39,439 bases of DNA from a virus. Lineage: Duplodnaviria > Caudoviricetes. The translations under genes were made by a program, and so were the position numbers. The stretch lies in the IMG/VR virus record IMGVR_UViG_3300025127_000087, positions 1-39,439 of that record; one strand, given 5' to 3'. Each line of letters begins with the position of its first letter. Positions within the stretch are counted from its first letter, which is position 1. Below are positions 1-39,439 of this stretch, piece after piece. The notes under the pieces are model-generated. The model was not told the DNA's origin. It saw nothing but the letters and a program-made list of their open reading frames with translations, and ran no database searches.

Positions 1-2
1 GA

Positions 3-944: not shown

Positions 945-965
945 TCCTGAAAGGAAGGACCAATC

Positions 966-1415
966 ATGTCTCTCAGCTTTACTCAGGGGCCATCGGGCCT
1001 CGAATTTGAAACCCAGAGCGTCACGGTCACATGCAATGACGCAGTGCTCAAGGGGAACGTTGTCACCTTCGTTCTCGCAAGCGGTGGGTACGCAGCATGT
1101 GCAAAGTCAGCAACTGCTGACAGCACTCCTGATCACATCCTTGGTATCGCACTCGAAGACATCAGTGCTGGTGCTCAAGGTCGTGTCGGAATGCGCGGCG
1201 TGTTCCAGGTGCTCTGTCATGCAGACCTCGATGATGGCGAAGTCGCCATTAACGGCGGAACTGCTGGGCAGCTTACGGCTATGGGTACTGACCCGACCGA
1301 TGGCGGTTCCGCCTACGTCAAGCCGGTTGGCGTTGCCCTTGAAACCATCGGTGCAGGCGGAATTGGATCCGTTCTGTTCGATGGTGTCACTGGTTTCGCT
1401 GCCGCGAACAACTGA
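966..1415 (+). CDS. Capsid decoration/cement protein (DUF2190-like), allele A
   Basis: 149 aa, Gly/Ala-rich, directly after MCP; motifs ILGIALEDISAGAQGRV and VGVALE; SD-like AAGGA upstream. Confidence 0.75.
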   Translation: MSLSFTQGPSGLEFETQSVTVTCNDAVLKGNVVTFVLASGGYAACAKSATADSTPDHILGIALEDISAGAQGRVGMRGVFQVLCHADLDDGEVAINGGTAGQLTAMGTDPTDGGSAYVKPVGVALETIGAGGIGSVLFDGVTGFAAANN

Positions 1416-1430
1416 TCCATTCAAACCACA

Positions 1431-1462
1431 CACTTGGGGGGGTAGCCATTCCCCCTCAAGTG
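1431..1462 (+). terminator. Stem-loop after decoration gene (weak terminator or processing/stability hairpin)
   Basis: CACTTGGGGGG...CCCCCTCAAGTG with only a short U run. The second copy (39321-39352) has A>G, which keeps pairing as G-U. Confidence 0.5.
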
Positions 1463-1481
1463 ATTTCAACTAGGAGATCGC

Positions 1482-2354
1482 ATGTACGCACCGACACAAG
1501 GCCCAGTCAATACTGGATTCGCGCAGACCGAGATCGAAGCAAAGGCATCTGGTAGTGACATCCTCAAGGGTCAACTGGTCAGGGTGCTACACAATGCAGA
1601 CGACGTCCCGACCGTTCGACTGACGAACAACGCAGACAGAGTCGCGTCGGTTCCTCTTGGTGTTGCCAAGCATGACTTCAAGCAAGGCTACAACGGCACG
1701 GTTGTTGTGGCTGGTGTTGGCATGGTCCTGGTCACAGACGCATCGTTGAAGACCGCAACACGGTCAGATGCTGATATCGAAATTGTGTGCAGTGATTCTG
1801 GAGTAGCAATCCAACGAACTGCTACAAATGCCAAAGGCAGCATACCGTTTGGAATGACAATCGAGGCCAAAGGTACTGCTCGGGATTATGTGCCAGTTGC
1901 TTTCTCTGGGTACGCCAGGATCAACTCACCATCAAACGTGGCACTCACAAGCATCAGTGTCAGTGGTGACATTTCTAGGACAGCGGCGAACACGTACATT
2001 CCACAGCAAGGAGTTGCGAACAGAATCTTGCTACCGGAAAAAGCATGGAATCCTAAACTAGGATCTCCTGCACATGTTGATGTGTACCGTGAATCCTTCT
2101 ACCAGGCTTTGGATTCATCTGGTCCTGCTGGTGACGTTGAACTGAAAAGTTCAGGCGTGTCATTCATCATCAACTGTGGTGGATACCTTCATAACAATGG
2201 AAGCAACAACATCCACTCAATGCCATTTGACAGCGATGTGAATTCTGCTGGTATATCTGTGAACGGATCATCAGGAGCAATGACCTTGATGAGAGGTTCG
2301 TTCGTTGATGATACCGATGATGGGTACTTTGTTTGGGTCGATTACGTCGAGTAA
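1482..2354 (+). CDS. Second decoration-like virion protein with C-terminal extension
   Basis: N-terminus (QGPVNTGF..., LGVAKHD, FGMTIE) resembles 966-1415; AGGAG SD; extra ~140-aa domain. Confidence 0.6.
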   Translation: MYAPTQGPVNTGFAQTEIEAKASGSDILKGQLVRVLHNADDVPTVRLTNNADRVASVPLGVAKHDFKQGYNGTVVVAGVGMVLVTDASLKTATRSDADIEIVCSDSGVAIQRTATNAKGSIPFGMTIEAKGTARDYVPVAFSGYARINSPSNVALTSISVSGDISRTAANTYIPQQGVANRILLPEKAWNPKLGSPAHVDVYRESFYQALDSSGPAGDVELKSSGVSFIINCGGYLHNNGSNNIHSMPFDSDVNSAGISVNGSSGAMTLMRGSFVDDTDDGYFVWVDYVE

Positions 2355-13057: not shown

Positions 13058-16000
13058 TTGACTCTATTCCAAAAAAGCGGCGAAGGACACCAGGATTTTA
13101 CCCTTGGTGAGTTGCTTGGAAAAACTGCGAAGAAAACACCTGAGCAGTTTCTCGGTGAACTTCTTACAGACAAAGCTGATCCTCTTGTCAACTACAGAGC
13201 ACAACGCGGTGCTCGTGAGCTTGGTGATCAAATGGGCGGCGAAACATCCAAGCAATTCTCGCGGGCCTTTCAACGTGCTCTTCGTGAATCCCCGCTCGGG
13301 TTCTTGGGTTCCGCACTCCCTGTTGAAACCATTGACAGATTCGCACAAGCTGCGATCAGAGGTGGTTCAGCGTTCAGCGGTACGGTTGCAGATGTGATCG
13401 GGGAGCTTCCAGGTGCCGAAAGTATGAATGGTTTGGCAGCGTTCATGCGCGGTTGGACAGAGTCATTCCGACCTGAAGACACACCACACTGGCTCATCGG
13501 CGACATCGAGCAAGCAGTTGAGAGCGCACCTGGAACTGCACTCGGTGTCGGTGGTGCCTTGCTTGGCGGTGGCCCAGTTGGAGCAGCCATCGGTGGAGCA
13601 GTCGGCGGCATGGGTGTCAGCTACTCGCGGAGCAAGTACCAAGCTGAAACCCAGGTTGATGAGATGATTGCGTTCTACGAACGTGAAGGATTTGAGATCC
13701 CGAAGCACCTCACTGATGATGCCATTGAAAACATGGCAATGTACATGGCACTCATTGAAGGCGGAATCGAAGGTGTCGGGGCTGGCGTGTCCTTCGGTAT
13801 TGGTGCAGGTCTTGCGAAGCTGGCGACGAAGAGAGCGTCGAGGAAATTGGCGCGGTCTGCTGCTGAGAAGTTTCTTGGAGCATCGGTTGTTAAGGGAGCC
13901 AAGGGTGCAGGCTTGTTCGCTGGCGAAGCTGTGCTCGAAGGATTAGAAGAGGTAGTGACAGAACGTGCGCAAGCACCACTTCAGATTGACCCAGTGCAGC
14001 GTGATGTGACCTGGACTGAACTTGGTCTTGCATTCAGAGGTGGCATGGTTGGCGGTGCCACCATGTCCACGCCGATGCTTGCAGTAGGAGCAATTGCGGA
14101 AAAGAAAAGACAAGAAGCTCAGGAGAAAGCTCTTAGGGAGTTGAACCAAGTTCTCGTCGAGGCAGCAGGACCAGCATCACGCCAGGTTGCCCGATACGAG
14201 AATGAGTTCGACGGCAAGACAGAGGGAGAGCAGCAGAACAGAATTGAACGCGCAACTGAAGCGCGTATGAACTTGATTGGTCAGCGAGAAGGTTTCAAGT
14301 CGATGACTGAATCTGAGCTTCTCGAAACCGATGCTGACGGTGTCACAAACGCAGACAAGCAGCACAACCTCACAAGACAGATCACTGAGCTTCAGGATGC
14401 AATCGAAGCGATGCAGGTGGCGAAAGCCAACTTGAAAGACGGAATTCGCACTGAAGTCATCGAGGCCCAAGACCCAACTGAATACATAAAGCAGAACGGG
14501 TTCAAGTTTGTTGCGGAACCTTCCGAGAAAGTAGGCGACGCTGCCAACAGACTTCGAGAACTCGGAGTTGATGTGCGCGTTGTGGACACCGGGAAAGAGG
14601 GAGCAGCCTTCTACGATCCGCAAACACCCACCACGATCTATCTGAACGACAATGCATCAGTGACGGCGGACTCGTTCGCGGAGGGACTCCATGAGTTGGA
14701 TCACCTGCTGGATCACCTGGCCCCCGAACAGGCGGCTGAGATCCGAGACATCCTCACCCTGACCCGCAGGATGGAGTACGCGAAAGAGTACACCACAGGA
14801 CAAGGTGCGGATACGAAGCAGGACAGAGCAGCCAGAGCACGTCAGCAGGCCCAGTCACAGCTTGAGCGAGGCAGAGGCATCAAAACCGACGATGAGGGCA
14901 TCGCGAACCTCAGAGGCGGAGAGACCTTCAGCGAGGTCGAGGGTACGGCATCAGCGGTTGGCAGAGGTGCGGAGATCCTCAGTCCCGCTGACAAGTCCAG
15001 GTTCGCCCGTGCGATCGACGCAGTCGCAGCCAGGGTTGGTTTCCTCGGACAGGAAGCAAAGGCCGCACAGAGGATCCTAGACACCATCAAGAGCACCCTG
15101 GAGTCTCTGCCGACGATCAAGCCGGGGGATCAGGTCGAGATCCGGGGCAAGGGCGCGGAACTCATCCAGAGAACTCGGATGCTCCCCGAGGCTACCCCGC
15201 TCCGATCTCGCCGCACGGCAGAGACAGTGAGTGAGGCATCGCAGGCCCGCATGGATCAACCGGGCGGAATCGGTGATGTACAAGCACTGAGTTCCAGGGC
15301 GGCAGCGGACACCAGCAGCCCGGAATTCAAGCAGTTCTTTGGCAAGAGCCAGGTGGTCGATGAAGGCGGCGAACCGCTCGTGGTCTACCACGGCTCGACC
15401 GAATACTTCGATACCTTCAACTACGACAAGCTGGGCCAGCAAGGCACTTCAGAGGGTCGAGGTCTGTACTTCACAAGCAGCGAAGAAGTTGGCGTTGCAT
15501 ACCAGACTAGGGGAGAGGATGGCCCCGGCGTACTGTTCGAGGGATATCTCAACATCGAGAAGCCCTTGTCAGAGGATTCAAAGACAATCACCAAGGATGA
15601 GCTTGAGCAGTTCATTCGAGCGATCGATCCAGACGGCTCAGAGTATCTGACAAACTATGGAGATGTCTCGTTCGATGGGTACGACTCGGTCGTTGCTAAG
15701 GCCGTCGAAGCGGAGTATGACTTCAGTGAAAACGATGTTGACCTGATCAACGCGATCATGTCCGCAGGTGTGCCGGATGAGATGGAGTTCTTCCGCACGT
15801 TGAAGAGCACCCTGGGGTACGACGGCATCATCACAGCGTGGGGTGACAAAGAAGATGGCGGTGTCCCGATCTACATCGCGTTCTTGCCTGAGCAAGCCAA
15901 GTCTGTCGAGAGCAAAGCGTTTGACACCACGAAGCCTTCGTTCCTTGAGTCAAGGCGTAAAAACAACAAGGCCGAAGTCGAACAAGTTCTTGAAGCTGTA

Positions 16001-19000
16001 CCAGCTAAGACAGCACAAACCGTCCTTGCCAAGAGTGACATGGTCAACTGGATGACACCAGAAGACGCGCTTGGTTTCACACGGTCGGATGTTGCAAACG
16101 AGGCGATTGCAAAGTACGACGAGTTTGTGTCAGATCGTCGGTTGCTTGCAGATGCGTTGCAGATACTTCCTGCTGCCTCAGAGTGGTACATGCTCAGTGA
16201 GCAAGTGTTCTCCTCTTTGGGAGAGGGCAGGATCCCACTGTGGAAATTGGTTGCCGTCATCGCGACAACGTCTGCACAGAAGAGCGTGAAGAGTAATGTG
16301 GATGTCGGTCTGCGGACTGCCCTTGCGTACACTGAGTTCATCGAGAAGGGTGGAGACCCAAGCAATACTGAGTCTTTGCTCCGTGCAATCGCAGGAAAAA
16401 ACGCAAGCAGAGGGCCGAAGGGGAGAATGAAAAAGATTCTTTCGACAGGCACCGGCCCACTGTACTTGTATGCAGATGTGCTCGGAACCGCCGATGTGCT
16501 TCAATCGCAAACCATGGATGAAGTGGTGCAGCGACTGATCACGCCAGGTTCAATGATCAAGCAGCAACTCGACCTGGACAAGGGAACAGGCGCAGCGCGT
16601 AAGTTGGCGGCATTCCTGCGCAACTTGATGGGTGACGATCGCCTCGTGACAAACGATGTGTGGATGGCTTTCTGGTGGGGAGTTGACCAGCAGAACTTCT
16701 CGTCAGGAAGTGGGTACGCAGCGGCAACCGCAGCAATGAGAAACATCGCCTCCGCCGTCGGCATGTCTCCGGCCCAGGGCCAGGCTGCTGCGTGGGCTAT
16801 CGCAAGAGTCTATCTTGGTCGTGTACGAAACGAAAAGAAACGAGCACCTGCGAACAGAAGAAAGTTCACTGATGTGATCGCAGAGCCTGTTACAATTGAA
16901 GACCTGTTGGGAACTGACATCGGTTCCCTGTTGGTGTTGCCGACTCTACCGAGCGGCGGAAAGGAAGTAGCAAATGAAGCCCCAGACCTTCTTCGATCGC
17001 TTGGATTCAACCCAGATGCAGCAAGAGACATCGTCGGAGACTTCGAGCAAAGGTATCGGGAAGCGTATTCAGGAGTTGACTTCAGCCTCCCAGGTAGCCT
17101 TGGACCTCGCCGTTCGTCGCGTCTCGTCAGAAGATTTGAACAAGCCGACATCGACCGAAACATCAAGAAGAATGTAAAACGTGCAGAGGAGGGCAAGCCT
17201 CCTCTTCCGACTACGAGGCTTGCGTCTCGCCAAGGCGTGTTCGACAGCAAGATGTACCGCAGTCTGAATGATGCTCGTGATCAACCCAACATCAAGACAT
17301 CAGAGCAGCTTCGAGCATTCCTCGGCAAGCAAGGTGTCGAGCGCGAAGAGATCTACTGGACTGGACTCGACGAGTTCCTGAAGAGCCAGGATCCGAAGGC
17401 GACCGTAGACATTGACGAAGCTATCGCGCACGGAACTACCCCGGTTGAGGTGTTCACGAATGTGCAGACAGATTCTGAAATTCTGGACCGAGACCCAGAC
17501 GACTTGTACGGCAAACCAGACGCATACACTCGCGTCGGTGAATTTGTTGAGTACACCTCATACTTGCCGCCTGGTCATGGCCCAGCTACCAACTTGGTAT
17601 TGTCGTTGAACCCTTCTGATGAAAGACTCACAAGAGACGAGGGGGGACTTCCTGTCTACGACTTTGAAAACAAGAAAATGGTAGAAGTCGAAGACCAGGA
17701 GGCCGACAATCGAAAGAAAGGCTTCAGTGGTTCACAGCATAGTTTCAGTGGGGTTCCACGCGGCTCGATAATTACCCACGTTCGTGCCACGGACCAGCGG
17801 TACAAAATCGACAATACTGAAGAGCCAAACACCTTCAACCTTGCCGAGGTCCAGAGTGATTGGGCATCAGGCTTGATGCAACTACCCTCGCATTTTTCGG
17901 GGACAAAGGAAGTGGTTACGCCATTCGTTTTCAGTAAGCGCAAGGGCAAAGTTGTTCCACTGTGGCAGAAGCTGGCACTCAAACGCTCTCTCGCATATGC
18001 GGTCGAGAACGGCTACGAATACATCAGCCTACCGAACACTGACTTGGTGAATAGCTCACCAGGTATCGAAGTTGAAGGCAAGGGCTACGACGCTCTTGTC
18101 AAGATGTTTGAAACCTTGCTGGACCCATACATTCGCAAGGGAGATATTTCAGGCTGGTATGAAGGTGTCGTGGAACCTGACGAACTTGGCATGGCCCCAG
18201 CAGGATCCATGAATGTAGAAGAGTTGCGCGAACAGTACGTTCGAGACAACCTGAGTGATTTCATGGAATCTGCGATAGAAAGTGAAACTTACAACTGGGA
18301 AAATGAAATCTACGAATTAGATGTGGATGATAAATTTCAGTTCCCGAAAGATTGGGCAAATCAAGTTGCAAAGGCTCACGCCAGTCCAGGGTACAACCAA
18401 ACCAGAGCCGTGATCGAGCAGATCGATTACAGCGCGGCTCAAGTTTGGAGTTACCTGACGCAATGGCAAAGTTCAGATAACCTGCCGGATAATGACACGG
18501 GTCGTTACCAAGACAGACCAGTTCCGTTCATTGAAGAACAAGAAGGGCTTCCTGGTATCCCGAAGATGAACCACGGTGTCTACCGTGAAGAACAGGGTCA
18601 GTTGGGTCTTTCTGGTGAGGAAATCGAAGTCTATGTCATACGCACAAGTGAAGGCGAAAAGATAGGCGAGGCTCCTTCATTCCAAGCAGCACACAAGCTA
18701 CTAGCTCAAATTCAAATTGACACGATCAGAGAGTACTCCAACGACATGCTCAATTCGTTCGAGATCCTGCAAGTAGCACCTGACAACGCTATTGATAGCC
18801 GTATGCCTGTGTTCATAGGATCGCTCAGTTCAGATGCGCTTGAGGCTTCTGGTCTCCTCGAAAGTGACATGATTGAGGAAAGAGCTAGAGAAGACCTAGA
18901 TCATGTCATGGATTCCATGGATGAGTTTGATGAATCAAACGAAACAGGTATGCGCGAAGACGCACGCGCAACGGTGTACAAGCTCGGTGACAAGAATGAA

Positions 19001-22000
19001 CCAGGCACTCTTGCCAACGTGATCCAAGAAGAACTCGACACCGTCGGCATGCCACTCTTCAGTAGGCGTGGAGGTCTCGGAGGTGAGGAGGTCGTAGCTT
19101 CCCCAGATCCACGAACTAGCACTCCAGAGTTCCAAAGGTTCTACGAAGGTACGCACCCATACCTCTACGACGAACAGGGTGAACCACTTGTCCTCTATCA
19201 CGGAACCATGGCTGATCCGAAAGACCCGGATACAGGCGCGGACATGGAAGGTGAGTTCGATAGATTTGTGATCAATCGAGGGATAATTGGCAACAAGTAT
19301 GGCCCTGGGGTGTACGCGACTGCTAGTCCTGACATGGCTAGTAATTACGCAGGTGCTTCACAACCGTCGTGGGCCAGACACCAGGGCGACCTTAATGATG
19401 TGTCCGAACAAGCGCGAATACTCCCGCTGTACTTCGCGTTGAAGCGACCCTACGTCATTGAGACATTTTCTGGGGAATCAGAGATCGATCCAGACCGTGA
19501 CTTGCGGTCTGAGGGTTATGACGGCGTGATCAGAATGGGTCGATGGTCCGGCCAGGATTACGTCAAAGAAGCAGTCGCGTTCGAGCCAGGTCAAGTCAAG
19601 TCTGCCTTGGGCAACCGTGGCACGTTCGACCGATCGCAAGACAGCATGTTGGAATCACGCTCGTACCGCCGAGATGCAGAAGACGAGTTCTTCTCTGATC
19701 GCAAGGGGCAGCGTGGCAACCGAGAAATGAGGAAGTCCTTCCGAGCAGGCTACGCATACTCGAATGAAGAAGCCAAGATGATTCGCGAGGAAGAGCGCGA
19801 AGCCCAGAACGACAGGCTTCGAGAGAAGGTGGCGAACGAGCGCGTCCTGGCCGCCGACAAGCTCATCCGGTTGAAGAACAGATTCGATCGATTCAAGGAG
19901 CGCGAAACCAACAGGAGGTTGGTGGAGCGAATGAAGGGTCGCACGAGAGAGCAGCGTCTCAAGCTGGTGCAGGAAGCGAACAAGGAACGACAGAAGGAGA
20001 AGGACAACTTGGCGAAGTCAATTCGCAAGTCCGCCCTTGAAGTCGTTCGCCTGTTGCCCGAGAAGTACAAGGGCAAGATCGCGGCACAGCTTGCGAAGAC
20101 TGACAACCCGAAGAAGCTGGCGGCTCTTTCTCGACGTGCCATCCGACTGTCTGCGCATGCTACCTATGGAAATACGCGCACCCGGTTCGGTAAGGCGAAG
20201 AAGATGCTTCGCAAGCGCAAGATGTCGAACCAAACCAAGAAGAACGTCATGGCCGCGCTTGACCAAGCCGAGAACGCGCTGCGTCCTGACGGCTCTCTGC
20301 TCACCACCACCGCGAAGACTGAACAGTCCCTGGCCGCATCGGAAGCAGCAAACAAGCTGATCGACCAGGCTCTCGATGCATACCGCATGGAGCGCGATGA
20401 CTTCAGATCGCAGAAGGATGCGAGGTCCGAAAGACTTCTTGATGCAGCGATCGCCATTGAGGAAGGGTTTACCGGCAGGCGATTTGCGAAAAGGAAGCAG
20501 AAGGGTGTCACTTCGTCACCATTCCGAGAGGGTGTGGTCAGGGCGATCATCCGAATGGGCGGCGACATGGAGTCTCTCATCGAAACAATCGACGAGAGCG
20601 GAGTCTTCTCTGAGTATCTCGTTGCTCGAATGAGAAGAGCAGAGTCTGACTACTACACCGTTCGTCGAGAAATCATGGAAGAGCTTGACCTGGCCGCGCA
20701 ACGTGCCGGGTTCGCTTCTGGCGATGCATTGCTTGCCGCGACATCAGACTCGCACCTTGGCATCGAATCCACTCAGAAGCGTGACATCATCGTCAACGGC
20801 AAGAAGGTCACTGTTAGATTGGGCGAGTTGATGAAACTCGCTGCTCTGGATGACGAGTCCTTGAACATGATTCTCGACACCACCGACGATGACGGCAATG
20901 AAGTGCGTGGAGTTGGCATTGCATTCAGAGACGCAGGCGACGATGTTGCGTACCAGATGACTGCGGATGAATACGCCGCGATCCTCGCGACACTGACTCC
21001 CGAAGAAGCCGCCCTGGTACAGGAACTGAAGGATGCCCGCGAGAAGCTCCGAGATCCAGCGTTCGATGTGTTCTACCAGTTGCATGGGTATCAACCACGA
21101 TTCGTTCCAGGGTACGAGCCACGTTCTCGAAGAGCGACGGCATCGATGGAACCGCCGGACGTGCAGACCTCTGGCGTTGGTGCTTCGTTCCTGGACACTG
21201 GTGGATTCACAAAGGAGCGCGTGGAGGGCGGCGGATCCCCGGTTCTCATCGGTGACTTTCTCAGCGACTGGATGAATTCAACAGATGCGCTTGCACGTTT
21301 GTCAACGATGGCGATGCCAGTTCGCGATGCATACGCACTACTCATGGATGAGCGTTTGTCCAAAGAGATCGTCACCCGATATGGCCAGGGTGCGCTTGAC
21401 AGACTTCGTGAAATGTTTATCACTGGTTCTGGATTGCAACCAAGGGCGAAGCGAGAGGGAATTGCGAAGCTGTTCTCGGATCTTGCTGGTGCTCTTTCGG
21501 TCGCGTATTTGAGTTTGAACCCTGGCACCTTTACCCGTGTGGCTGCTGGTGGTGTGGCTAGGATGATTTCAGATCCTGACATGCCAATTGGCGGATTGTC
21601 GAAAGCATTAGTTACCCCTACAAGTTGGCCGAAGTTTGATGACATCGCAGAGATCAGTGGTTACTTCTACGCAAGAAACCGAGAAGCAGCGATTGACAGA
21701 CGAACTAATCAACAGATGCAGACTCTCGAAGGAGAGCGTCGGCGCATGGCGATTGAACACTTAAAAGCTGCTATGCGAGAAACAGCCGCAGGTCGCATTG
21801 GAATTGCACGTAAACAACTCATCAATGCATTCGGTCAGATAGGTATTCTTGACTTGATCGACCGAACCTTGGTGCGAGTTGCAGTCGCTGCGCACATGGG
21901 TGATGGAGTTTCACTTGAGCAAGCAGTTGATCGTGCTGAAACGACAATTCGACGAACACAGAACACTACTAGTGCGCTTGATGATCCTGCGATTCTTGGA

Positions 22001-22702
22001 GCAGGTGGCACTGGGTCGGTGGCCAGGATGTTTCTTCCGTTCGCTTCAGACCCAATGAAGGCTGGTGCAAGGTTGCATCAAGCGGCGGGTAGCGGTGACA
22101 TGTCTGGTGTCGGTCGATGGGTGGGAAGCACCCTGGCGAACGCAACGGTCAACGTCACCACACGACCGATCACGTACATAATTGGGTATGCAATCTCTGA
22201 AATGTTCGGAGACGAAGAAGAGTCTCTTGTCAATCAAGCCAGAATCTACGAGCAGTGGAGCGCAGACACCATGGGGATCGACGCGATTTCCGAAACGATT
22301 GGAAGCGCAGGTGGAGTTGGTGGGTACATCATCGCTGGACCAATCGCAGACATGGTCATGAGATACGCTTCTGGGAAGACTATCTACGCTGATTCCGCTA
22401 CTCCACAACCTCTCGGTATCGACGCGATTGCCCAGTTCGCACAGACCGCGACCTACGCATTGCAGTCAACCAAACCAGAAACAAGGAACCGGCACCTCAA
22501 GGCATTGGCGAACCAAGCTCTCAAGGTCGGCATTGGAGACCCTACCCAGGCCATCCGAAAATCACTTGGAGCGTTGGACCCGATCGACACAGGCGAGGTT
22601 GACCGAGCGATTAGGCTGCTGAAGAAGCTCAAGAAATCAGGAGATGAATCCGATCGGTTGGATGAGCTTATTCGCAGACTTGAAGCTGTGAAGGGTGACT
22701 AA
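13058..22702 (+). CDS. Giant polyvalent virion/ejection protein (zincin-like HExxH, two ART-PolyVal-like domains, HhH-like domain, EVQSDW domain, helical C-terminus)
   Basis: 3214 aa ORF (TTG start, uncertain); HELDH at 14690-14704; two GEPLV.YHG...G.Y...GYDG.I...AF...Q.KS units at ~15300-15945 and ~19100-19650. Confidence 0.85.
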   Translation: MTLFQKSGEGHQDFTLGELLGKTAKKTPEQFLGELLTDKADPLVNYRAQRGARELGDQMGGETSKQFSRAFQRALRESPLGFLGSALPVETIDRFAQAAIRGGSAFSGTVADVIGELPGAESMNGLAAFMRGWTESFRPEDTPHWLIGDIEQAVESAPGTALGVGGALLGGGPVGAAIGGAVGGMGVSYSRSKYQAETQVDEMIAFYEREGFEIPKHLTDDAIENMAMYMALIEGGIEGVGAGVSFGIGAGLAKLATKRASRKLARSAAEKFLGASVVKGAKGAGLFAGEAVLEGLEEVVTERAQAPLQIDPVQRDVTWTELGLAFRGGMVGGATMSTPMLAVGAIAEKKRQEAQEKALRELNQVLVEAAGPASRQVARYENEFDGKTEGEQQNRIERATEARMNLIGQREGFKSMTESELLETDADGVTNADKQHNLTRQITELQDAIEAMQVAKANLKDGIRTEVIEAQDPTEYIKQNGFKFVAEPSEKVGDAANRLRELGVDVRVVDTGKEGAAFYDPQTPTTIYLNDNASVTADSFAEGLHELDHLLDHLAPEQAAEIRDILTLTRRMEYAKEYTTGQGADTKQDRAARARQQAQSQLERGRGIKTDDEGIANLRGGETFSEVEGTASAVGRGAEILSPADKSRFARAIDAVAARVGFLGQEAKAAQRILDTIKSTLESLPTIKPGDQVEIRGKGAELIQRTRMLPEATPLRSRRTAETVSEASQARMDQPGGIGDVQALSSRAAADTSSPEFKQFFGKSQVVDEGGEPLVVYHGSTEYFDTFNYDKLGQQGTSEGRGLYFTSSEEVGVAYQTRGEDGPGVLFEGYLNIEKPLSEDSKTITKDELEQFIRAIDPDGSEYLTNYGDVSFDGYDSVVAKAVEAEYDFSENDVDLINAIMSAGVPDEMEFFRTLKSTLGYDGIITAWGDKEDGGVPIYIAFLPEQAKSVESKAFDTTKPSFLESRRKNNKAEVEQVLEAVPAKTAQTVLAKSDMVNWMTPEDALGFTRSDVANEAIAKYDEFVSDRRLLADALQILPAASEWYMLSEQVFSSLGEGRIPLWKLVAVIATTSAQKSVKSNVDVGLRTALAYTEFIEKGGDPSNTESLLRAIAGKNASRGPKGRMKKILSTGTGPLYLYADVLGTADVLQSQTMDEVVQRLITPGSMIKQQLDLDKGTGAARKLAAFLRNLMGDDRLVTNDVWMAFWWGVDQQNFSSGSGYAAATAAMRNIASAVGMSPAQGQAAAWAIARVYLGRVRNEKKRAPANRRKFTDVIAEPVTIEDLLGTDIGSLLVLPTLPSGGKEVANEAPDLLRSLGFNPDAARDIVGDFEQRYREAYSGVDFSLPGSLGPRRSSRLVRRFEQADIDRNIKKNVKRAEEGKPPLPTTRLASRQGVFDSKMYRSLNDARDQPNIKTSEQLRAFLGKQGVEREEIYWTGLDEFLKSQDPKATVDIDEAIAHGTTPVEVFTNVQTDSEILDRDPDDLYGKPDAYTRVGEFVEYTSYLPPGHGPATNLVLSLNPSDERLTRDEGGLPVYDFENKKMVEVEDQEADNRKKGFSGSQHSFSGVPRGSIITHVRATDQRYKIDNTEEPNTFNLAEVQSDWASGLMQLPSHFSGTKEVVTPFVFSKRKGKVVPLWQKLALKRSLAYAVENGYEYISLPNTDLVNSSPGIEVEGKGYDALVKMFETLLDPYIRKGDISGWYEGVVEPDELGMAPAGSMNVEELREQYVRDNLSDFMESAIESETYNWENEIYELDVDDKFQFPKDWANQVAKAHASPGYNQTRAVIEQIDYSAAQVWSYLTQWQSSDNLPDNDTGRYQDRPVPFIEEQEGLPGIPKMNHGVYREEQGQLGLSGEEIEVYVIRTSEGEKIGEAPSFQAAHKLLAQIQIDTIREYSNDMLNSFEILQVAPDNAIDSRMPVFIGSLSSDALEASGLLESDMIEERAREDLDHVMDSMDEFDESNETGMREDARATVYKLGDKNEPGTLANVIQEELDTVGMPLFSRRGGLGGEEVVASPDPRTSTPEFQRFYEGTHPYLYDEQGEPLVLYHGTMADPKDPDTGADMEGEFDRFVINRGIIGNKYGPGVYATASPDMASNYAGASQPSWARHQGDLNDVSEQARILPLYFALKRPYVIETFSGESEIDPDRDLRSEGYDGVIRMGRWSGQDYVKEAVAFEPGQVKSALGNRGTFDRSQDSMLESRSYRRDAEDEFFSDRKGQRGNREMRKSFRAGYAYSNEEAKMIREEEREAQNDRLREKVANERVLAADKLIRLKNRFDRFKERETNRRLVERMKGRTREQRLKLVQEANKERQKEKDNLAKSIRKSALEVVRLLPEKYKGKIAAQLAKTDNPKKLAALSRRAIRLSAHATYGNTRTRFGKAKKMLRKRKMSNQTKKNVMAALDQAENALRPDGSLLTTTAKTEQSLAASEAANKLIDQALDAYRMERDDFRSQKDARSERLLDAAIAIEEGFTGRRFAKRKQKGVTSSPFREGVVRAIIRMGGDMESLIETIDESGVFSEYLVARMRRAESDYYTVRREIMEELDLAAQRAGFASGDALLAATSDSHLGIESTQKRDIIVNGKKVTVRLGELMKLAALDDESLNMILDTTDDDGNEVRGVGIAFRDAGDDVAYQMTADEYAAILATLTPEEAALVQELKDAREKLRDPAFDVFYQLHGYQPRFVPGYEPRSRRATASMEPPDVQTSGVGASFLDTGGFTKERVEGGGSPVLIGDFLSDWMNSTDALARLSTMAMPVRDAYALLMDERLSKEIVTRYGQGALDRLREMFITGSGLQPRAKREGIAKLFSDLAGALSVAYLSLNPGTFTRVAAGGVARMISDPDMPIGGLSKALVTPTSWPKFDDIAEISGYFYARNREAAIDRRTNQQMQTLEGERRRMAIEHLKAAMRETAAGRIGIARKQLINAFGQIGILDLIDRTLVRVAVAAHMGDGVSLEQAVDRAETTIRRTQNTTSALDDPAILGAGGTGSVARMFLPFASDPMKAGARLHQAAGSGDMSGVGRWVGSTLANATVNVTTRPITYIIGYAISEMFGDEEESLVNQARIYEQWSADTMGIDAISETIGSAGGVGGYIIAGPIADMVMRYASGKTIYADSATPQPLGIDAIAQFAQTATYALQSTKPETRNRHLKALANQALKVGIGDPTQAIRKSLGALDPIDTGEVDRAIRLLKKLKKSGDESDRLDELIRRLEAVKGD

Positions 22703-23436: not shown

Positions 23437-23626
23437 AGCAATCAGAAAGTTCATCAGCGACGATCGTGGAATGCAGACTGGTGAATACATGATCCTTGGC
23501 ACCATCATGGGCGCGGGATCAGTCGGTGCAATCAAGACAGTTCGCGATGGCCAGGTTGAAAAGTTTCAGCAGTTGACTGAAGCATTGGACACGAACTCTG
23601 ATGGAACAATCGGTGGTGGTGGGTAA
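23429..23626 (+). CDS. flp: Flp-family type IVb pilin
   Basis: 65 aa; leader MVEAIRKFISDDRG, then MQTGEY (Glu+5, Tyr+6), hydrophobic helix and F..L...L tail. Confidence 0.75.
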   Translation: MVEAIRKFISDDRGMQTGEYMILGTIMGAGSVGAIKTVRDGQVEKFQQLTEALDTNSDGTIGGGG

Positions 23627-23647
23627 TTGAACCTGCAAGCCAAAGAG

Positions 23648-23676
23648 AAACGCCCTCCTCACCGGGGGCGTTTTTT
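23648..23676 (+). terminator. Rho-independent terminator ending the late operon (possibly bidirectional)
   Basis: AAACGCCCTC-ctcacc-GGGGGCGTTTTTT at the convergence of the two strands. Confidence 0.8.
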
Positions 23677-24006
23677 CGTGATCTTGATCACTCGGAAATC
23701 GTGGTCTCTTTTCCATTCATAACTTCTGAATTCTGGTGGGCAATCACTGAAATCCTTGCGACACTCTTCGGCTTCCTCGAATGTTCCGAACTTTCGGATC
23801 TGTCCGATTTTCCGATTTCCTTTGCTTGCGTTGTTGAATGCCCTGGGTTTGCCTTGGTCTTGTCTGCATTGAATTTCACACTGCCGCAGTACCCCATACA
23901 GAACATCTCGGTCTTCCACTGGCGAGCGTGATCGTATTACGAACAGAGTTTCCTCTGGTTGATCAGGAAGTGTTGCAATGTATGTGTTCATCTTGACGTT
24001 GCTCAT
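23659..24006 (-). CDS. Early hypothetical protein (115 aa)
   Basis: Shared leader GAGAACACAATG. Confidence 0.7.
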   Translation of the reverse strand: MSNVKMNTYIATLPDQPEETLFVIRSRSPVEDRDVLYGVLRQCEIQCRQDQGKPRAFNNASKGNRKIGQIRKFGTFEEAEECRKDFSDCPPEFRSYEWKRDHDFRVIKITKKRPR

Positions 24007-24027
24007 TGTGTTCTCTTTCCAGGTTGA

Positions 24028-24144
24028 TCAGCGGATCTTCAGGTTGGCAGGCCAACCCAGAGGCTTGCCATCTTGCATCGGGTTGTTGAGGTGCTTTTCG
24101 TGTTCGATGTCGTAGGTCGTCATGATCATGTTGTCGCGGTCCAT
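24028..24144 (-). CDS. Early small protein (38 aa)
   Basis: Manual translation MDRDNMIMTTYDIEHEKHLNNPMQDGKPLGWPANLKIR; leader GAGAACACAATG. Confidence 0.6.
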   Translation of the reverse strand: MDRDNMIMTTYDIEHEKHLNNPMQDGKPLGWPANLKIR

Positions 24145-24145
24145 T

Positions 24146-24187
24146 GTGTTCTCTTTTCTGCGCGTTCTGGGAGTCGCGCCCCTCCGT
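24146..24187 (-). repeat. 42-bp intergenic repeat, copy 1 (pseudoknot-like element plus leader)
   Basis: Identical to 25094-25135. Confidence 0.95.
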
Positions 24188-24192
24188 TGTAA

Positions 24193-24684
24193 TTACCGAC
24201 GAGTATCTACTGCTTCTCGGGCTTCACCCATGAGATCAAAGGCGCACTCCTGTCCATCGTTCTCAGCGGATTCGACAGCCGACCAGTCCGGTTCGCAGTT
24301 CACGAAGTGCAGACGATTGCCCCATCCTCTGTTGATCGCATGACATCGGTCATAGCAGAAAGCCCAGACCCATTCGGATGCGTCAGTCGCATAGAAGTCA
24401 CTGACGATCTCGGAAGCCTTGAAGCTGAACGGTGACACGATCCAGTCGCTTCCGACTGCTGCGATCTTGATCTCGGGCTGTCGATCGCGGTGCATGAGGA
24501 AAACGACGAAGGCGTTGTCCCATACCTTTCTCACTCCCATCACATGTCTGCCGTCTGCGTCAACCGCGAGACCTGTCTCTGAGTCGTACATGAAGGAGGA
24601 GGTCTTGCTGTCAAGGCGCATCATGCCGCTGATATGGTGGATGGCTTGCTTCTTGGTCTCGAAAAGTTTCGGTGAGTTGTTCAC
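24193..24684 (-). CDS. Early hypothetical protein (163 aa)
   Basis: GTG start after leader GGAGAACACC. Confidence 0.7.
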   Translation of the reverse strand: MNNSPKLFETKKQAIHHISGMMRLDSKTSSFMYDSETGLAVDADGRHVMGVRKVWDNAFVVFLMHRDRQPEIKIAAVGSDWIVSPFSFKASEIVSDFYATDASEWVWAFCYDRCHAINRGWGNRLHFVNCEPDWSAVESAENDGQECAFDLMGEAREAVDTRR

Positions 24685-24685
24685 G

Positions 24686-24735
24686 GTGTTCTCCAGTTCT
24701 GCGCGTTGGATGAGCCGCGCCCCTCATGTTGTTGG
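24686..24735 (-). repeat. Diverged copy of the intergenic repeat
   Basis: Minus strand CCAACAAC-ATGAGGGGCGCGGCTCATCCAACGCGC-AGAACTGGAGAACAC. Confidence 0.85.
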
Positions 24736-25092
24736 TTAGCCTTGTGCGATTGCGCAAGCGATCTCGATCTTGCTCTTCTTGAAGTTGGCCTCTTGGATCA
24801 TGGTCTTGATCTTCCTGAGCTTTCGCTTGTCGGTGGTTCCCCACTGCTTCGCGACGTGCGCGGAGTATTGAGGAGTCCATGCTTTATTGAGGTGCTCGGG
24901 TCCGCCTCTTCTCGCCTCGGACTCTGCGGCCTTGAGCGCGAGAGGGAAGGAAGAGGACCATCCGGTGATGACGTTGCCCGATTCCGTCGTCACCCTCCAC
25001 GCGCATCCGAGGTCGCGCTTCGACTTGATGGTCATGACAGTCCCATCGGTGAAGGTGGCGGTGAAGGGCTTGGCTTTGGTCGTGTTCGTCAT
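24736..25092 (-). CDS. Early hypothetical protein (118 aa)
   Basis: Leader GAGAACACCATG. Confidence 0.75.
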   Translation of the reverse strand: MTNTTKAKPFTATFTDGTVMTIKSKRDLGCAWRVTTESGNVITGWSSSFPLALKAAESEARRGGPEHLNKAWTPQYSAHVAKQWGTTDKRKLRKIKTMIQEANFKKSKIEIACAIAQG

Positions 25093-25093
25093 G

Positions 25094-25135
25094 GTGTTCT
25101 CTTTTCTGCGCGTTCTGGGAGTCGCGCCCCTCCGT
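25094..25135 (-). repeat. 42-bp intergenic repeat, copy 3
   Basis: Identical to 24146-24187. Confidence 0.95.
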
Positions 25136-25140
25136 GTTGG

Positions 25141-25374
25141 TTACTTGGCGCGGGGGTGTGACTGCGCAACAAAGAAGCCAGTGTCGCCCCATGCGACTCG
25201 GGCAGGTGTCGAAGGATCGAGCTGATGCTCGAACTCGACCGGCCAGTCCAGTCGATCCATCACAGTCACAGCGACCATCGTGTCGTTGTCGATCGACGCT
25301 GCGATCTGCTTGGCTTCGGCAAGGCTCCAGATCCCTGCGTTCTCTTTGGTCTCGAAGTTAGTCGGGGCTTTCAT
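25141..25374 (-). CDS. Early hypothetical protein (77 aa), first gene of the leftward operon
   Basis: Start MKAPTNF after leader GGAGAACACATG, just downstream of the leftward promoter. Confidence 0.7.
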   Translation of the reverse strand: MKAPTNFETKENAGIWSLAEAKQIAASIDNDTMVAVTVMDRLDWPVEFEHQLDPSTPARVAWGDTGFFVAQSHPRAK

Positions 25375-25408
25375 GTGTTCTCCAGTTAGGTGGTTGACTT
25401 GAACCCCA

Positions 25409-25436
25409 AAGATAGCGAGTAAACTTGAGTATGCAA
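25409..25436 (-). promoter_or_regulatory. Leftward sigma70-like promoter
   Basis: Minus strand TTGCAT-N16-TATCTT with an AT-rich upstream region. Confidence 0.6.
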
Positions 25437-25482
25437 GGGGCAACTGAGAAAAACTGAAATTTAGATTTATTTCTGTATCTTG

Positions 25483-25510
25483 TTGACAACTCCAGTCAAC
25501 TCCTTATAGT
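25483..25510 (+). promoter_or_regulatory. Rightward sigma70-like promoter overlapped by a palindrome
   Basis: TTGACA-N16-TATAGT; GTTGAC-N7-GTCAAC at 25482-25500. Confidence 0.75.
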
Positions 25511-25574
25511 TGGCACATGACCTGGCTTTTCAAGGGCAGCAACCCTGAGCCAGACGAACAAGCCAAGGAGCACC

Positions 25575-25835
25575 ATGAAACACCGATACACGCTTTACAC
25601 CGAACAGGATGGGAAGCTCATTCCCCGCCTGAGTGCAAACCCTGACCTCCCGTGGGAGGAAACCGCGTACGTGATCGTTGACACCCGTGACAACAATCGC
25701 ATCGTCGCCCGATTCGATGAAGGCACCGCGTTCCCGAACAATCCGCTGACGCAGGCATGGAAAGAGCTTGACCGGCTGAACTATGACAACGTCAAGGTGT
25801 TCGCCGACAAGGTGAGGAAGGAGTACGAGAAATGA
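25575..25835 (+). CDS. Hypothetical protein
   Basis: AAGGAG SD; first gene after the rightward promoter. Confidence 0.75.
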   Translation: MKHRYTLYTEQDGKLIPRLSANPDLPWEETAYVIVDTRDNNRIVARFDEGTAFPNNPLTQAWKELDRLNYDNVKVFADKVRKEYEK

Positions 25836-37520: not shown

Positions 37521-38831
37521 ATGGCTGGAACCGCACTTTCCAAGTTTGCAGACTTTGTAGCTGCAACTGGCCCCGCGTACCTGACCGGGCCTGACGTTCT
37601 CGTCAACGAAGCTGTCGAGAGAAACTATCTTTGGGGCGCACTCGCAAGTGGACCCCAGGGTGTCAACATTCAAACTGGTGCTGAGATCAAGGACTCCTTG
37701 ATGCTTGATGCCTCGAACACGTTCGAGTTCTACAAGCCCAACGCAACCTTCAGCTACCGCAACCCCAACGTGCTCGACACGACCTCGGCCCCCTGGCGTT
37801 TCGCTGTCGATCACATGGCGTTCACTGATCACGAGATCGAACTGAACGCTGGTGACGGCCTCTCCGTTGACGGCATCAAGAACGTCTACAAGAGACTGAA
37901 GCGCGTCAAGGAACAGCGCATGACCACGTCGCTGGTCAACGGCATGGAGAAGTCTCTCTTCGCCGACTGCGTTGCGAACAAGGCTGAGATCGCTGATGCC
38001 ACTGGCAGCCAGCCCTTCCCCCTGTCTGCGTTCATCAACGAGATCATCGTTGACAGCGCAGAAACTCAGCTTGGCGAGATCCGTGGTGGTGGTGTGCCGA
38101 AGGGATGGACCGACATCCAGGGCATCGACCCATTTGCTGAACCTCGTTGGTCGAACCAGGTTTCGTTCTACGACGAAGCTGGCTTGGCAAGCAAAGCAGT
38201 TGCGACTGTTGCAAGAAGCCGGACTGGGCAAAGCGCAGCCGGAAACAACCACACCGTTGCAAGCCGGAACATTCCGGCTGGTGGCTTCCTCAATGCCTTC
38301 GACGACATGTTCCTGAAGTGTCAGTACACTGCGCCCGCGCAGTTCTCTGAGTACTTCAGCAACGCCACGATGGCACAGCAGATGATCCTCACTTCCCGCG
38401 CTGGTCTCAACCAATACACCGATGCGCTTCGCGATGCTAACGATCGACTGGTTTCACCCCAGGATCCGGCCTACGCACAGCCCACCTATGCGGGTATTCC
38501 TCTGCGATACATCTCCTCCCTCGACACTGCGAAGCTCTACCCTGGCGACTCTGATGCAAGCCAGAACAACAGCTACGACCTCAGTGTTGCTGAAGGTGAT
38601 TCCGCTGAAACCAGTGCTCATAATGTTGCATCTGGAACTGCACGGTACTACTTCGTCAATGGCGAGTACCTCAACGTGGTTCTCCATGGCAACCACTTCT
38701 TCAAGAAGTCAGATGTCATGCGTCACCCCAACCAGCCCTACACCTCGATCGTCCTGTGTGACACTTGGTGGAACCTGATGGCTCGTTCGCGTCAGCGTCA
38801 CGGCATCATTGCACCTTGTCACAGTTCGTGA
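37521..38831 (+). CDS. Major capsid protein, allele B (full length)
   Basis: 436 aa; AAGGAG SD; after scaffold; YAGIP, YF.N..YL and R.RHG motifs. Confidence 0.85.
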   Translation: MAGTALSKFADFVAATGPAYLTGPDVLVNEAVERNYLWGALASGPQGVNIQTGAEIKDSLMLDASNTFEFYKPNATFSYRNPNVLDTTSAPWRFAVDHMAFTDHEIELNAGDGLSVDGIKNVYKRLKRVKEQRMTTSLVNGMEKSLFADCVANKAEIADATGSQPFPLSAFINEIIVDSAETQLGEIRGGGVPKGWTDIQGIDPFAEPRWSNQVSFYDEAGLASKAVATVARSRTGQSAAGNNHTVASRNIPAGGFLNAFDDMFLKCQYTAPAQFSEYFSNATMAQQMILTSRAGLNQYTDALRDANDRLVSPQDPAYAQPTYAGIPLRYISSLDTAKLYPGDSDASQNNSYDLSVAEGDSAETSAHNVASGTARYYFVNGEYLNVVLHGNHFFKKSDVMRHPNQPYTSIVLCDTWWNLMARSRQRHGIIAPCHSS

Positions 38832-38852
38832 TCTCGGAAGGAAGGACTAATC

Positions 38853-39305
38853 ATGTCTCTCAGCTTTACTCAGGGGCCATCGGGCCTCGAATTTGAAACC
38901 CAGAGCGTCACGATCACATGCACTGACGCACTCAGCAAGGGCAACCTTGTCGAGTTCACCCTGGCATCGGAAGGCTACGCTGCATGCACGAAGTCAACCG
39001 ATGCTCTCAATGGTGCTGCTGTTCTCATGGGAATTGCCCTTGAGGATGTCACCGCAGGCTCACAAGGTCGCATCGGTGTTCGTGGTACTTTCCAGTGTAC
39101 TTGCGACTCTGAAGTTTCTGCCGGTGACGCACTGAATGCAAGTGCTGCCCACGCCGGGAACCTTGACACTATCGATGCACCAGGGGCAAATGACACCGCT
39201 CTTACGAAGGTGGTCGGAGTCGCACTTGGTGCGTCTGCCACCGACACAGATCTCACGCTGTGTCTCTTCGATGGCATCAATGGGTTCTCCTCGCAGAACA
39301 CTTGA
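38853..39305 (+). CDS. Capsid decoration/cement protein, allele B
   Basis: First 20 codons identical to 966-1025, then strongly diverged. Confidence 0.75.
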   Translation: MSLSFTQGPSGLEFETQSVTITCTDALSKGNLVEFTLASEGYAACTKSTDALNGAAVLMGIALEDVTAGSQGRIGVRGTFQCTCDSEVSAGDALNASAAHAGNLDTIDAPGANDTALTKVVGVALGASATDTDLTLCLFDGINGFSSQNT

Positions 39306-39371
39306 TCCATTCAAACCACACGCTTGGGGGGGTAGCCATTCCCCCTCAAGTGATTTCAACTAGGAGATCGC

Positions 39372-39439
39372 ATGTACGCACCGACACAAGGCCCAGTCAA
39401 TACTGGATTCGCGCAGACCGAGATCGAAGCAAAGGCATC
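39372..39439 (+). CDS. Start of the second decoration-like gene (truncated by the window edge)
   Basis: Identical to 1482-1549. Confidence 0.8.
   Translation, partial: MYAPTQGPVNTGFAQTEIEAKA

What the first reader, a model, noticed from the sequence alone, without database searches (positions are those of the whole stretch)
24160..25133. Repeated H-type pseudoknot-like RNA element between early genes, with a compensatory change
Seen on the minus strand: GGAG-GG-GCGCG-A-CTCC-CAGAA-CGCGC (24160-24185 and 25108-25133) and ATGAG-GG-GCGCG-G-CTCAT-CCAA-CGCGC (24701-24727). Stem 1 covaries (G-C vs U-A); stem 2 is invariant. Each copy begins 7-8 nt after a TAA and ends 15-16 nt before the next start codon. 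I do not recognise it as a named riboswitch or ribozyme. Inference: an undescribed cis-element for translational coupling/recoding, exonuclease blocking or mRNA processing. Only two distinct sequences support the covariation.
Basis: partly seen in the sequence, partly recalled or inferred. Interest (0 to 1): 0.8.

Follow-up and report, generated by a model that had tools for sequence, protein, structure and literature searches.

The report
Widespread stop-anchored phage RNA pseudoknot
The three repeats are copies of a tiny (about 26-base) predicted RNA knot, absent from the Rfam catalogue, that phages of many bacterial groups place just behind a gene's stop codon, where it likely acts as a passive barrier that keeps ribosomes and RNA decay from running on from one gene into the next.

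Summary
Observation confirmed: three copies on the minus strand, 7-8 nt after a TAA, 15-16 nt before a start; 0 hits in 300 simulated genomes. They belong to a large family (estimated 1,300-1,400 stretches in IMG/VR; also in cultured Mycobacterium, Corynebacterium, Microbacterium and E. coli phages). Both stems covary: with stem-2 pair 2 forced off consensus and its partner free, 107 of 107 distinct hits stay paired; stem-1 pair -3 is Watson-Crick in 101 of 102. The core G-GG..GCG/C..AACGC looks invariant. No Rfam match. Neighbouring genes are unrelated, reading frames random, stops mostly UAA, slippery sites rare, so recoding and gene-specific control are not supported. The element is anchored to the upstream stop (128 of 201 independent contexts at 9-14 nt from stop to loop 1, almost none closer), matching the mRNA entry of a terminating ribosome; it also precedes tRNAs, promoters and terminators. 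Best reading (0.45): a 5'-to-3' mechanical roadblock between cistrons, resembling the Watson-Crick coremin xrRNA but lacking its second hairpin. Main rival: 3' cap against exonucleases (0.25). Function is untested. Earlier notes of this scan seem to describe the same or a sister family.

The parts
25107..25133 (-). Pseudoknot copy 1 (stem 1 GGAG/CUCC, loop 1 GG, stem 2 GCGCG/CGCGC, loop 2 A, loop 3 CAGAA) plus the conserved 3' A at 25107
   Evidence: family covariation
24700..24727 (-). Pseudoknot copy 2 (stem 1 AUGAG/CUCAU, loop 2 G, loop 3 CCAA) plus 3' A at 24700
24159..24185 (-). Pseudoknot copy 3, core identical to copy 1, plus 3' A at 24159
25141..25374 (-). ORF, 77 aa, first gene of the leftward operon; its TAA lies 7 nt before copy 1; no family match
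24736..25092 (-). ORF, 118 aa, between copies 1 and 2; no family match
24193..24684 (-). ORF, 163 aa (GTG start), between copies 2 and 3; no family match
24028..24144 (-). ORF, 38 aa, starts 15 nt after copy 3; the 21-nt gap behind it has no pseudoknot
   Evidence: read by hand; the family scans used a wrong frame for this ORF, so it is unscanned
23659..24006 (-). ORF, 115 aa, last gene of the operon; no family match
25409..25436 (-). Possible sigma-70-type promoter of the operon (TTGCAT-N16-TATCTT, 8 of 12), back to back with a rightward TTGACA-N16-TATAGT site at 25483-25510
   Evidence: leftward site read by eye (below the scan threshold, inference); rightward site
23642..23676 (.). Inverted repeat flanked by A and T runs, likely a bidirectional terminator closing the operon
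   Evidence: one search lists the + strand hairpin 23654-23668; use on the minus strand is inferred

Best explanation
The element is a conserved, about 26-nt sequence predicted to fold as a compact H-type RNA pseudoknot, placed just behind stop codons in phage polycistronic transcripts, where it likely works as a passive, protein-free roadblock to machines that move 5' to 3'. Shown here: conservation, compensatory changes in both stems, sense orientation, anchoring to the upstream stop, independence from gene function. Inferred: (1) 9-10 coaxial base pairs are locked by the loop-1 guanines in the deep groove of stem 2 and the loop-3 adenines in the shallow groove of stem 1, which would explain the fixed letters; (2) a spacer of at least about 5 nt keeps stem 1 just outside the mRNA channel of a ribosome sitting on the stop codon, so the knot stays folded and would stop post-termination ribosomes from sliding on; (3) the same obstacle would slow 5'-end-dependent decay (RNase J digestion, RNase E scanning) from spreading into the next cistron; (4) the G-poor unstructured linker behind it lets the next gene initiate on its own. 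Net effect: each small gene or tRNA becomes an insulated module.
For: Pairing: stem-1 pair -3 Watson-Crick in 101 of 102 distinct viral hits with both sides free; stem-2 pair 2 paired in 107 of 107 when forced off C (U-A 102, U-G 3, A-U 2); the C-mismatch class has only 4 stretches in the whole collection against about 660 for C-G; stem-2 pair 1 Watson-Crick in 42 of 50 when forced off G; stem-1 pair -2 occurs as A-U, G-C and U-A. Position: 128 of 201 flank-independent contexts at 9-14 nt from stop to loop 1, 4 of 201 closer, 34 at exactly 9 and 0 at 8; shifted controls 2 of 195 and 6 of 201; ordinary strong hairpins in the same loci have no such edge (30 of 103 start less than 4 nt behind the stop or overlap it). 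Flanking genes unrelated. Precedents: structure right behind stop codons limits re-initiation in E. coli (PMC7518266, passages); H-type pseudoknots but not stem-loops impede RNase E scanning (PMC9943677, passages); the Watson-Crick coremin variant with loop GGCG and partner CGCU stalls Xrn1 and stimulates frameshifting, needs its loop G and junction G-C pair, and was selected in E. coli (PMC10321173, parts 2-4 of 6); a flaviviral xrRNA blocks RNase J1 (PMC5760640, passages).
Against: No functional or expression data. The second hairpin that coremin-type xrRNAs need against Xrn1 is absent (19 of 323 copies have any hairpin there, no better than shuffles), and known frameshift pseudoknots of similar size do not stop Xrn1 (PMC10321173). 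Pseudoknots of 8-11 coaxial pairs are only modest obstacles to RNase E (PMC9943677). Re-initiation may be a minor process in E. coli (PMC7538156, abstract only). Copies that sit 3-11 nt before a tRNA (6 of 159 contexts), before promoter-like sites (L300, L583) or before a terminator (L192; phAPEC8) have no downstream message to shield; 2 contexts lie between two tRNAs and 3 lie inside the end of an ORF, where no ribosome terminates upstream. The tight upstream spacing could be only a steric minimum in compact genomes. E. coli has no processive 5'-3' exonuclease (own knowledge), so RNase J cannot be the universal target.
Confidence: 0.45

Rival explanations
1. 3' end-cap: after an endonuclease or RNase P cuts in the linker behind it, the knot stops 3'-to-5' exonucleases and so stabilises the upstream gene's message, like REP or terminator hairpins.
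For: Tied more tightly to the upstream stop than to any downstream feature; found directly before tRNAs, where RNase P cutting would leave it at the 3' end of the upstream message (Pumpernickel, L694, L742, L774), and before promoter-like sites (L300, L583); 3'-5' exonucleases are universal in bacteria (own knowledge). Neighbouring gaps in mycobacteriophage operons carry plain GC-rich hairpins at the same place.
Against: A plain hairpin would do this job, so the near-invariant core is unexplained; redundant where a terminator follows (L192, phAPEC8); does not explain tRNA-knot-tRNA cases.
Confidence: 0.25
2. Binding site for a conserved host factor (RNA polymerase or Nus factors for antitermination or pausing, ribosomal protein S1, Rho) or a small ligand.
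For: Letter-level conservation across hosts of several phyla; occurrence in early operons and tRNA clusters, where readthrough of termination matters; C-rich G-poor linker behind it.
Against: No expression platform; unrelated neighbouring genes; terminators lie 8-55 nt downstream of some copies; the fixed letters are those that compact pseudoknots use for their own tertiary contacts (PMC10321173).
Confidence: 0.12
3. Very small self-cleaving ribozyme or fixed processing signal that cuts polycistronic RNA into gene- and tRNA-sized pieces.
For: Contexts (gene-gene, gene-tRNA, tRNA-tRNA) resemble those of phage self-cleaving ribozymes (own knowledge); RtcB-like ligase genes lie near the copies in PSonyx and Pumpernickel.
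Against: No Rfam ribozyme match; about half the size of known nucleolytic ribozymes, with no conserved stems or letters outside the knot.
Confidence: 0.08
4. Recoding signal or enhancer of translational coupling to the next gene (part of the first reader's proposal).
For: Spacing equals that of frameshift and readthrough stimulators; a look-alike knot stimulates frameshifting when put behind a slippery site (PMC10321173); 139 of 159 contexts have a start codon within 59 nt.
Against: UAA in 129 of 161 stops, downstream frame 52/44/53, readthrough extensions from 0 to 377 codons with no common length, slippery heptamer in 10 of 201; copies without any downstream gene.
Confidence: 0.06
5. DNA-level element: palindromic operator, single-stranded DNA signal or recombination linker for shuffling gene cassettes.
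For: GCGCG...CGCGC is an inverted repeat; copies 1 and 3 share 55 nt; BFK20 holds an internally deleted copy.
Against: Two independently covarying crossed stems, sense orientation to genes and tRNAs (antisense control), ribosome-scale spacing; most genomes carry one copy (41 of 45 with a match).
Confidence: 0.04

Closest known systems
Watson-Crick coremin variant xrRNA-WCC and coremin xrRNA-C of eukaryotic RNA viruses (PMC10321173, parts 2-4 of 6 read; PMC10520033, parts 1-2 of 6 read)
   Same: 4-bp stem 1, G in loop 1, GCG/CGC pairing at the junction (as in their screen Hit2), adenines just before the 3' strand of stem 2, location shortly after a stop codon or between genes.
   Different: Stem 2 is 5 bp not 3, loop 1 is GG, one extra base between the stems, no second hairpin, DNA phages instead of eukaryotic RNA viruses; nuclease resistance untested; common descent not shown.
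Ribosome termination structure, RTS (PMC7518266, passages read)
   Same: Stable structure directly behind a stop codon, outside the entry tunnel, in gaps longer than 25 nt (48, 51, 48 nt here) and independent of a downstream start.
   Different: RTS is a statistical class of any stable fold without a sequence signature; this is one fixed pseudoknot family in phages.
Pseudoknot obstacles to RNase E scanning (PMC9943677, passages read)
   Same: H-type knot with coaxial stems in an mRNA spacer.
   Different: Those tests used viral and telomerase knots in reporters; 9-10 pairs would give only modest protection.
T4/T2 gene 32 leader pseudoknot (PMC3014915, passages read)
   Same: Phage mRNA H-type knot followed by an unstructured A/U-rich stretch and a start codon.
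   Different: That one is the operator of one gene for its own protein; this one flanks unrelated genes and tRNAs.
STAXI motif, Rfam RF01728 (PMC2864571, passages read)
   Same: Repeated pseudoknot near DNA-handling genes of mobile elements.
   Different: STAXI is tandem (2-3 units), carries UUCG loops, is enterobacterial, and its Rfam model does not hit here.

Membership tests
coremin / xrRNA-WCC | 4-bp first hairpin stem | tested here: met
   pairs -1 to -4 Watson-Crick in 142 of 169 contexts at -4, pair -5 mostly unpaired
coremin / xrRNA-WCC | 4-nt loop with one G bridging a 3-bp stem 2 | tested here: not met
   8-nt loop: GG, 5-bp stem 2, one further base
coremin / xrRNA-WCC | Fixed G in loop 1, fixed junction G-C pair, adenines before stem 2' | tested here: inconclusive
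   present in all copies, but the collection scans fixed these letters; a 2-mismatch search of 56 genomes found no variant copy above control level; stem-2 pairs 3 and 4 are near-invariant
coremin / xrRNA-WCC | Second hairpin directly behind the knot | tested here: not met
   19 of 323 copies; mean energy of the next 30 nt -0.91 against -0.89 kcal/mol for shuffles
coremin / xrRNA-WCC | Stalls a 5'-3' exoribonuclease | not testable with these tools
   needs an enzyme assay
Ribosome termination structure (RTS) | Stable structure starting just outside the entry tunnel behind a stop codon | tested here: met
   128 of 201 contexts at 9-14 nt from stop to loop 1, 4 closer
Ribosome termination structure (RTS) | Lowers re-initiation at the next cistron | not testable with these tools
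   needs a bicistronic reporter
-1 frameshift / readthrough pseudoknots | Slippery heptamer 5-9 nt upstream | tested here: not met
   10 of 201 contexts
-1 frameshift / readthrough pseudoknots | Leaky stop with a conserved in-frame extension | tested here: not met
   UAA 129 of 161; frames 52/44/53; extension 0-377 codons
STAXI (RF01728) | Tandem repeats with UUCG loops, match to the Rfam model | tested here: not met
   no Rfam hit; copies are single and separated by genes
Gene 32-type autogenous operator | Lies upstream of the gene whose product binds it | tested here: not met
   downstream proteins unrelated: 15 of 80 have any PHROG match, spread over recombinases, helicase, HNH nucleases and others
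Known self-cleaving ribozymes and riboswitches in Rfam 15 (pistol, twister, HDV-like, preQ1, SAM-II, guanidine-III) | Match to the family covariance model | tested here: not met
   no hit on the element in the window or in 8 other loci
Known self-cleaving ribozymes and riboswitches in Rfam 15 (pistol, twister, HDV-like, preQ1, SAM-II, guanidine-III) | Self-cleavage or ligand binding | not testable with these tools
   needs in vitro assays

The most novel reading that the evidence does not exclude
The first natural phage family of exonuclease- and ribosome-resistant RNA: a 26-nt knot, smaller than any described xrRNA and needing no second hairpin, used by phages of Actinobacteria, Proteobacteria and several other phyla to partition polycistronic RNA, possibly sharing a fold or ancestry with the coremin elements of eukaryotic RNA viruses. 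The still bolder variant not excluded is a minimal self-cleaving ribozyme.
Probability: 0.3. Interest if true: 0.88.

Novelty: new variant of a known kind. Interest (0 to 1): 0.66.

Why it matters
A 26-nt motif with one fixed core in phages of very different hosts must act on something universal or be an unusually stable fold. It is too short for standard motif pipelines and is missing from Rfam. It sits in lab-tractable phages (mycobacteriophages Orion, Rosebush, Fishburne; coliphage phAPEC8), so the open questions of whether bacterial viruses use xrRNA-like barriers, and whether structure behind a stop codon controls post-termination ribosomes in a natural setting, become directly testable. 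If it works, it is also a very small portable insulator for synthetic operons.

Tried and rejected
Rfam 15: no gathering-level hit in the window; only chance-level hits in 23600-25600 and none on the element in 8 other loci. Nested folding is uninformative for a pseudoknot. A relaxed scan of 600,788 bases of flanks found no diverged extra copies. Forcing changes at stem-2 pairs 3 and 4 gave mostly chance hits: 8 stretches, 1 plausible; 13 distinct, 3 plausible. GTDB genomes: about 120 stretches for the C-G pattern, 66 of 120 unpaired at stem-1 pair -3, so largely chance; 25 genomes searched whole hold 1-2 plausible copies each, so it is not a REP-like chromosomal repeat. Plasmids: one query, top hits inside genes, not followed. 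Blast hits in Gordonia protease and Mycobacterium tail-sheath genes and in LIMEzero lie in coding sequence and were set aside. Sequencing runs: no RNA holder was listed for window 23600-25600, so no read evidence. The window's own assembly is not held. Literature: 10 searches showed no description of this motif; the alignments of the viral candidate-RNA survey PMC10690425 and the supplement of PMC5737381 could not be read, so an unnamed listing there is not excluded. Strand test by wobble pairs is weak: U-G 3 of 107 sampled hits against 4 C-A stretches in the whole collection.

Full report
Setting. The window is a near-complete, circularly permuted phage genome of about 37.9 kb (bases 1-1549 recur at 37894-39439 at 74-93% identity) with a terminase, an SU10/P22-like portal, RecT- and RusA-like genes and a 3214-aa protein with an ART-PolyVal domain. 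No cultured phage is close (best terminase match 33% over 42% of the length). The finding lies in a short leftward operon of five small genes, four of which were scanned and have no family match.

Observation. Each reads: stem 1 (4-5 bp), GG, GCGCG, one purine, stem 1', 4-5 nt ending in AA, CGCGC, A. They fill three of the four gaps between the five genes, 7, 8 and 7 nt after a TAA and 15, 16 and 15 nt before a start. The family consensus occurs 3 times here and 0 times in 300 simulated genomes. Rfam 15 has no match.

A large family. An exact pattern from the window found 25 stretches in IMG/VR in loci of 32-66% G+C. Wider patterns gave estimates of about 660 stretches with C at stem-2 position 2, about 640 with another base there, and a full count of 75 with a non-G at position 1; each capped scan returned about 120 loci. 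The C-G pattern hits only about 120 stretches in 596 Gb of GTDB genomes, and 66 of 120 distinct ones fail to pair at stem-1 position -3, so the element is mainly viral. I checked copies in the cultured phages Rosebush (2), LilMcDreamy (2), Baee (2), Orion, Fishburne (Mycobacterium), BFK20 and PSonyx (Corynebacterium), Pumpernickel (Microbacterium), phAPEC8 (E. coli) and one Microviridae record. The blast searches matched 127, 185, 71 and 295 phage records; only those named were checked. Plausible copies also lie on genome contigs labelled Microcystis, Chloroflexota, Acidobacteriota, Verrucomicrobiota, Bdellovibrio, Myxococcales and Streptomyces (some may be binned phage contigs), and one is a spacer of a CRISPR array in an Opitutaceae genome. 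Of 45 viral records with a match, 41 hold one copy and 4 hold two.

Both stems are kept by compensation. With both sides free, stem-1 pair -3 is Watson-Crick in 101 of 102 distinct viral hits (C-G 56, G-C 38, A-U 7). Pair -2 occurs as A-U, G-C and U-A (25 of 112 distinct metagenome hits forced off U had a stem of 3 or more pairs, the rest look like chance). For stem 2, forcing position 2 off C with the partner free gave 107 of 107 paired (U-A 102, U-G 3, A-U 2), while keeping C and forcing the partner off G gave 4 stretches in the whole collection. Forcing position 1 off G gave 42 Watson-Crick of 50 hits with an intact stem 1 (A-U 36, U-A 3, C-G 3; 5 further hits lacked stem 1). Positions 3 and 4 hardly vary. 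Over 169 flank-independent contexts, 6 to 12 of the 30 multi-member clusters contain two different Watson-Crick pairs at a given position, so the changes recurred. Caveat: loop-1 GG, stem-2 pair 5 and the AA were fixed in every collection scan; a 2-mismatch search of 56 genomes found only loop-2 U and 3' U variants above control level. No tree-aware test was run.

Context. Neighbouring proteins are unrelated and mostly unknown: 15 of 80 downstream and 24 of 62 upstream proteins have any PHROG match (recombinases, helicase, SSB, resolvase, ATPase, HNH). The element lies in the sense of the flanking genes (antisense control flat). Among 201 contexts with unrelated upstream flanks the distance from the stop codon to loop 1 is 9-14 nt in 128, 15-25 in 36, below 9 in 4, above 25 in 28, and not found in 5; 34 sit at exactly 9 and none at 8; shifted controls give 2 of 195 and 6 of 201. 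With a 4-bp stem this is a 5-nt spacer, about what a ribosome on the stop codon covers (PMC7518266 starts its folding window 9 nt from the first base of the stop for this reason). Strong hairpins behind other ORFs in the same loci show no such edge (30 of 103 closer than 4 nt or overlapping; crude ORF calls). The distance to the next start is broad (2-59 nt), and the linker is G-poor (4% G) and unstructured. In 159 contexts: stop-knot-start 117, stop-knot-tRNA 4, tRNA-knot-tRNA 2, stop-knot-other 9, before a terminator 1, inside an ORF end 3, no near stop called 23 (some are miscalls or have a second hairpin in between; a few are probably chance hits from genomes). Recoding is not supported: UAA in 129 of 161 stops, frames 52/44/53, slippery sites 10 of 201.

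Mechanism. Shown: a conserved two-stem pairing pattern, tied to the end of the upstream gene and indifferent to gene function. Inferred: a passive mechanical barrier. A pseudoknot rather than a hairpin points to 5'-to-3' movers: H-type knots but not stem-loops impede RNase E scanning, modestly at this size (PMC9943677); structure behind stops limits re-initiation (PMC7518266); and the closest look-alike, the Watson-Crick coremin variant, has the same loop G, GCG/CGC junction and adenine linker, needs them to stall Xrn1, and impedes ribosomes without its second hairpin (PMC10321173). I put this at 0.45. Against it: the second hairpin needed for Xrn1 resistance is missing (19 of 323; the longer stem 2 may or may not replace it), re-initiation may be minor in E. 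coli (PMC7538156, abstract), and copies before tRNAs, promoters and terminators fit a 3' cap for the upstream message better (0.25). The two roles are not exclusive. Factor binding (0.12), self-cleavage (0.08), recoding or coupling (0.06) and a DNA role (0.04) follow.

Known or new. It works like an RTS or a coremin-type xrRNA by inference, but fails membership of coremin/xrRNA-WCC (loop and stem-2 size, no second hairpin), STAXI, the gene 32 operator, frameshift signals and all Rfam ribozyme and riboswitch models. Ten literature searches showed no description; the alignments of PMC10690425 and the supplement of PMC5737381 could not be read and may list it unnamed. What I saw of each paper: passages only for PMC2864571, PMC5737381, PMC10690425, PMC7518266, PMC9943677, PMC3014915, PMC5760640, PMC12191101 and two 2026 preprints; parts 1-2 of 6 of PMC10520033; parts 2-4 of 6 of PMC10321173; abstract of PMC7538156. 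Earlier notes of this scan describe what reads like the same or a sister family in at least eight other genomes; they give no sequences, a look-up by sequence found nothing, and they are not independent support. The coremin lead came from them and was then checked against the papers and my alignment.

Verdict. Real, widespread, structurally well supported, uncatalogued as far as I could check, function untested. New variant of a known kind; interest 0.66.

Noticed in passing
window 1-1549 and 37894-39439: Terminal overlap of a circularly permuted genome whose two copies are only 74-93% identical, suggesting a mixed assembly of related strains.
   Followed up: no
window 13058-22702 (+): 3214-aa protein with an ART-PolyVal ADP-ribosyltransferase domain and DUF7178, a polyvalent protein likely delivered from the virion.
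   Followed up: no
L154, L162, L148, L339 (about 10-35 nt upstream of the knot); similar in PSonyx L553:3975-4000: A second hairpin with a recurring purine-rich loop (GGCCAATA, GGCGAATA, GAGGAATA type) sits between the stop and the knot in one phage family; 26 of 318 copies match the loop pattern.
   Followed up: partly
L449, L482, L622 and coliphage phAPEC8, between the last tRNA and the knot: A conserved stretch that can form two hairpins with TTGCC loops, followed by the knot and, in some, a terminator: a possible uncatalogued small RNA at the end of tRNA clusters.
   Followed up: no
L550:3391-3432 (BFK20): Internally deleted copy of the knot with the same downstream 20 nt as the intact copy, as if collapsed between its two GC-rich strands.
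   Followed up: no
L548:4591-4658, L549:3279-3343, L552:2381-2456: Neighbouring intergenic gaps of mycobacteriophage operons carry long GC-rich hairpins without U-tracts (one with a UUCG loop) before the same A/C-rich linker, in the place the knot takes elsewhere.
   Followed up: partly
L344, around position 3000 of the minus strand: The motif is part of a spacer in a CRISPR array (51 repeat copies in the locus) of an Opitutaceae genome, pointing to a Verrucomicrobiota host for a carrier phage.
   Followed up: yes
L553:1687-3956 (PSonyx), L566:919-4025 (Pumpernickel): In two unrelated actinobacterial phages the knot follows an AAA-ATPase gene of one family (phrog_2376) with an RtcB-like ligase gene nearby.
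   Followed up: no
L565:3000-3030: A short-loop copy between VP1 and the next gene of a single-stranded DNA Microviridae record.
   Followed up: partly
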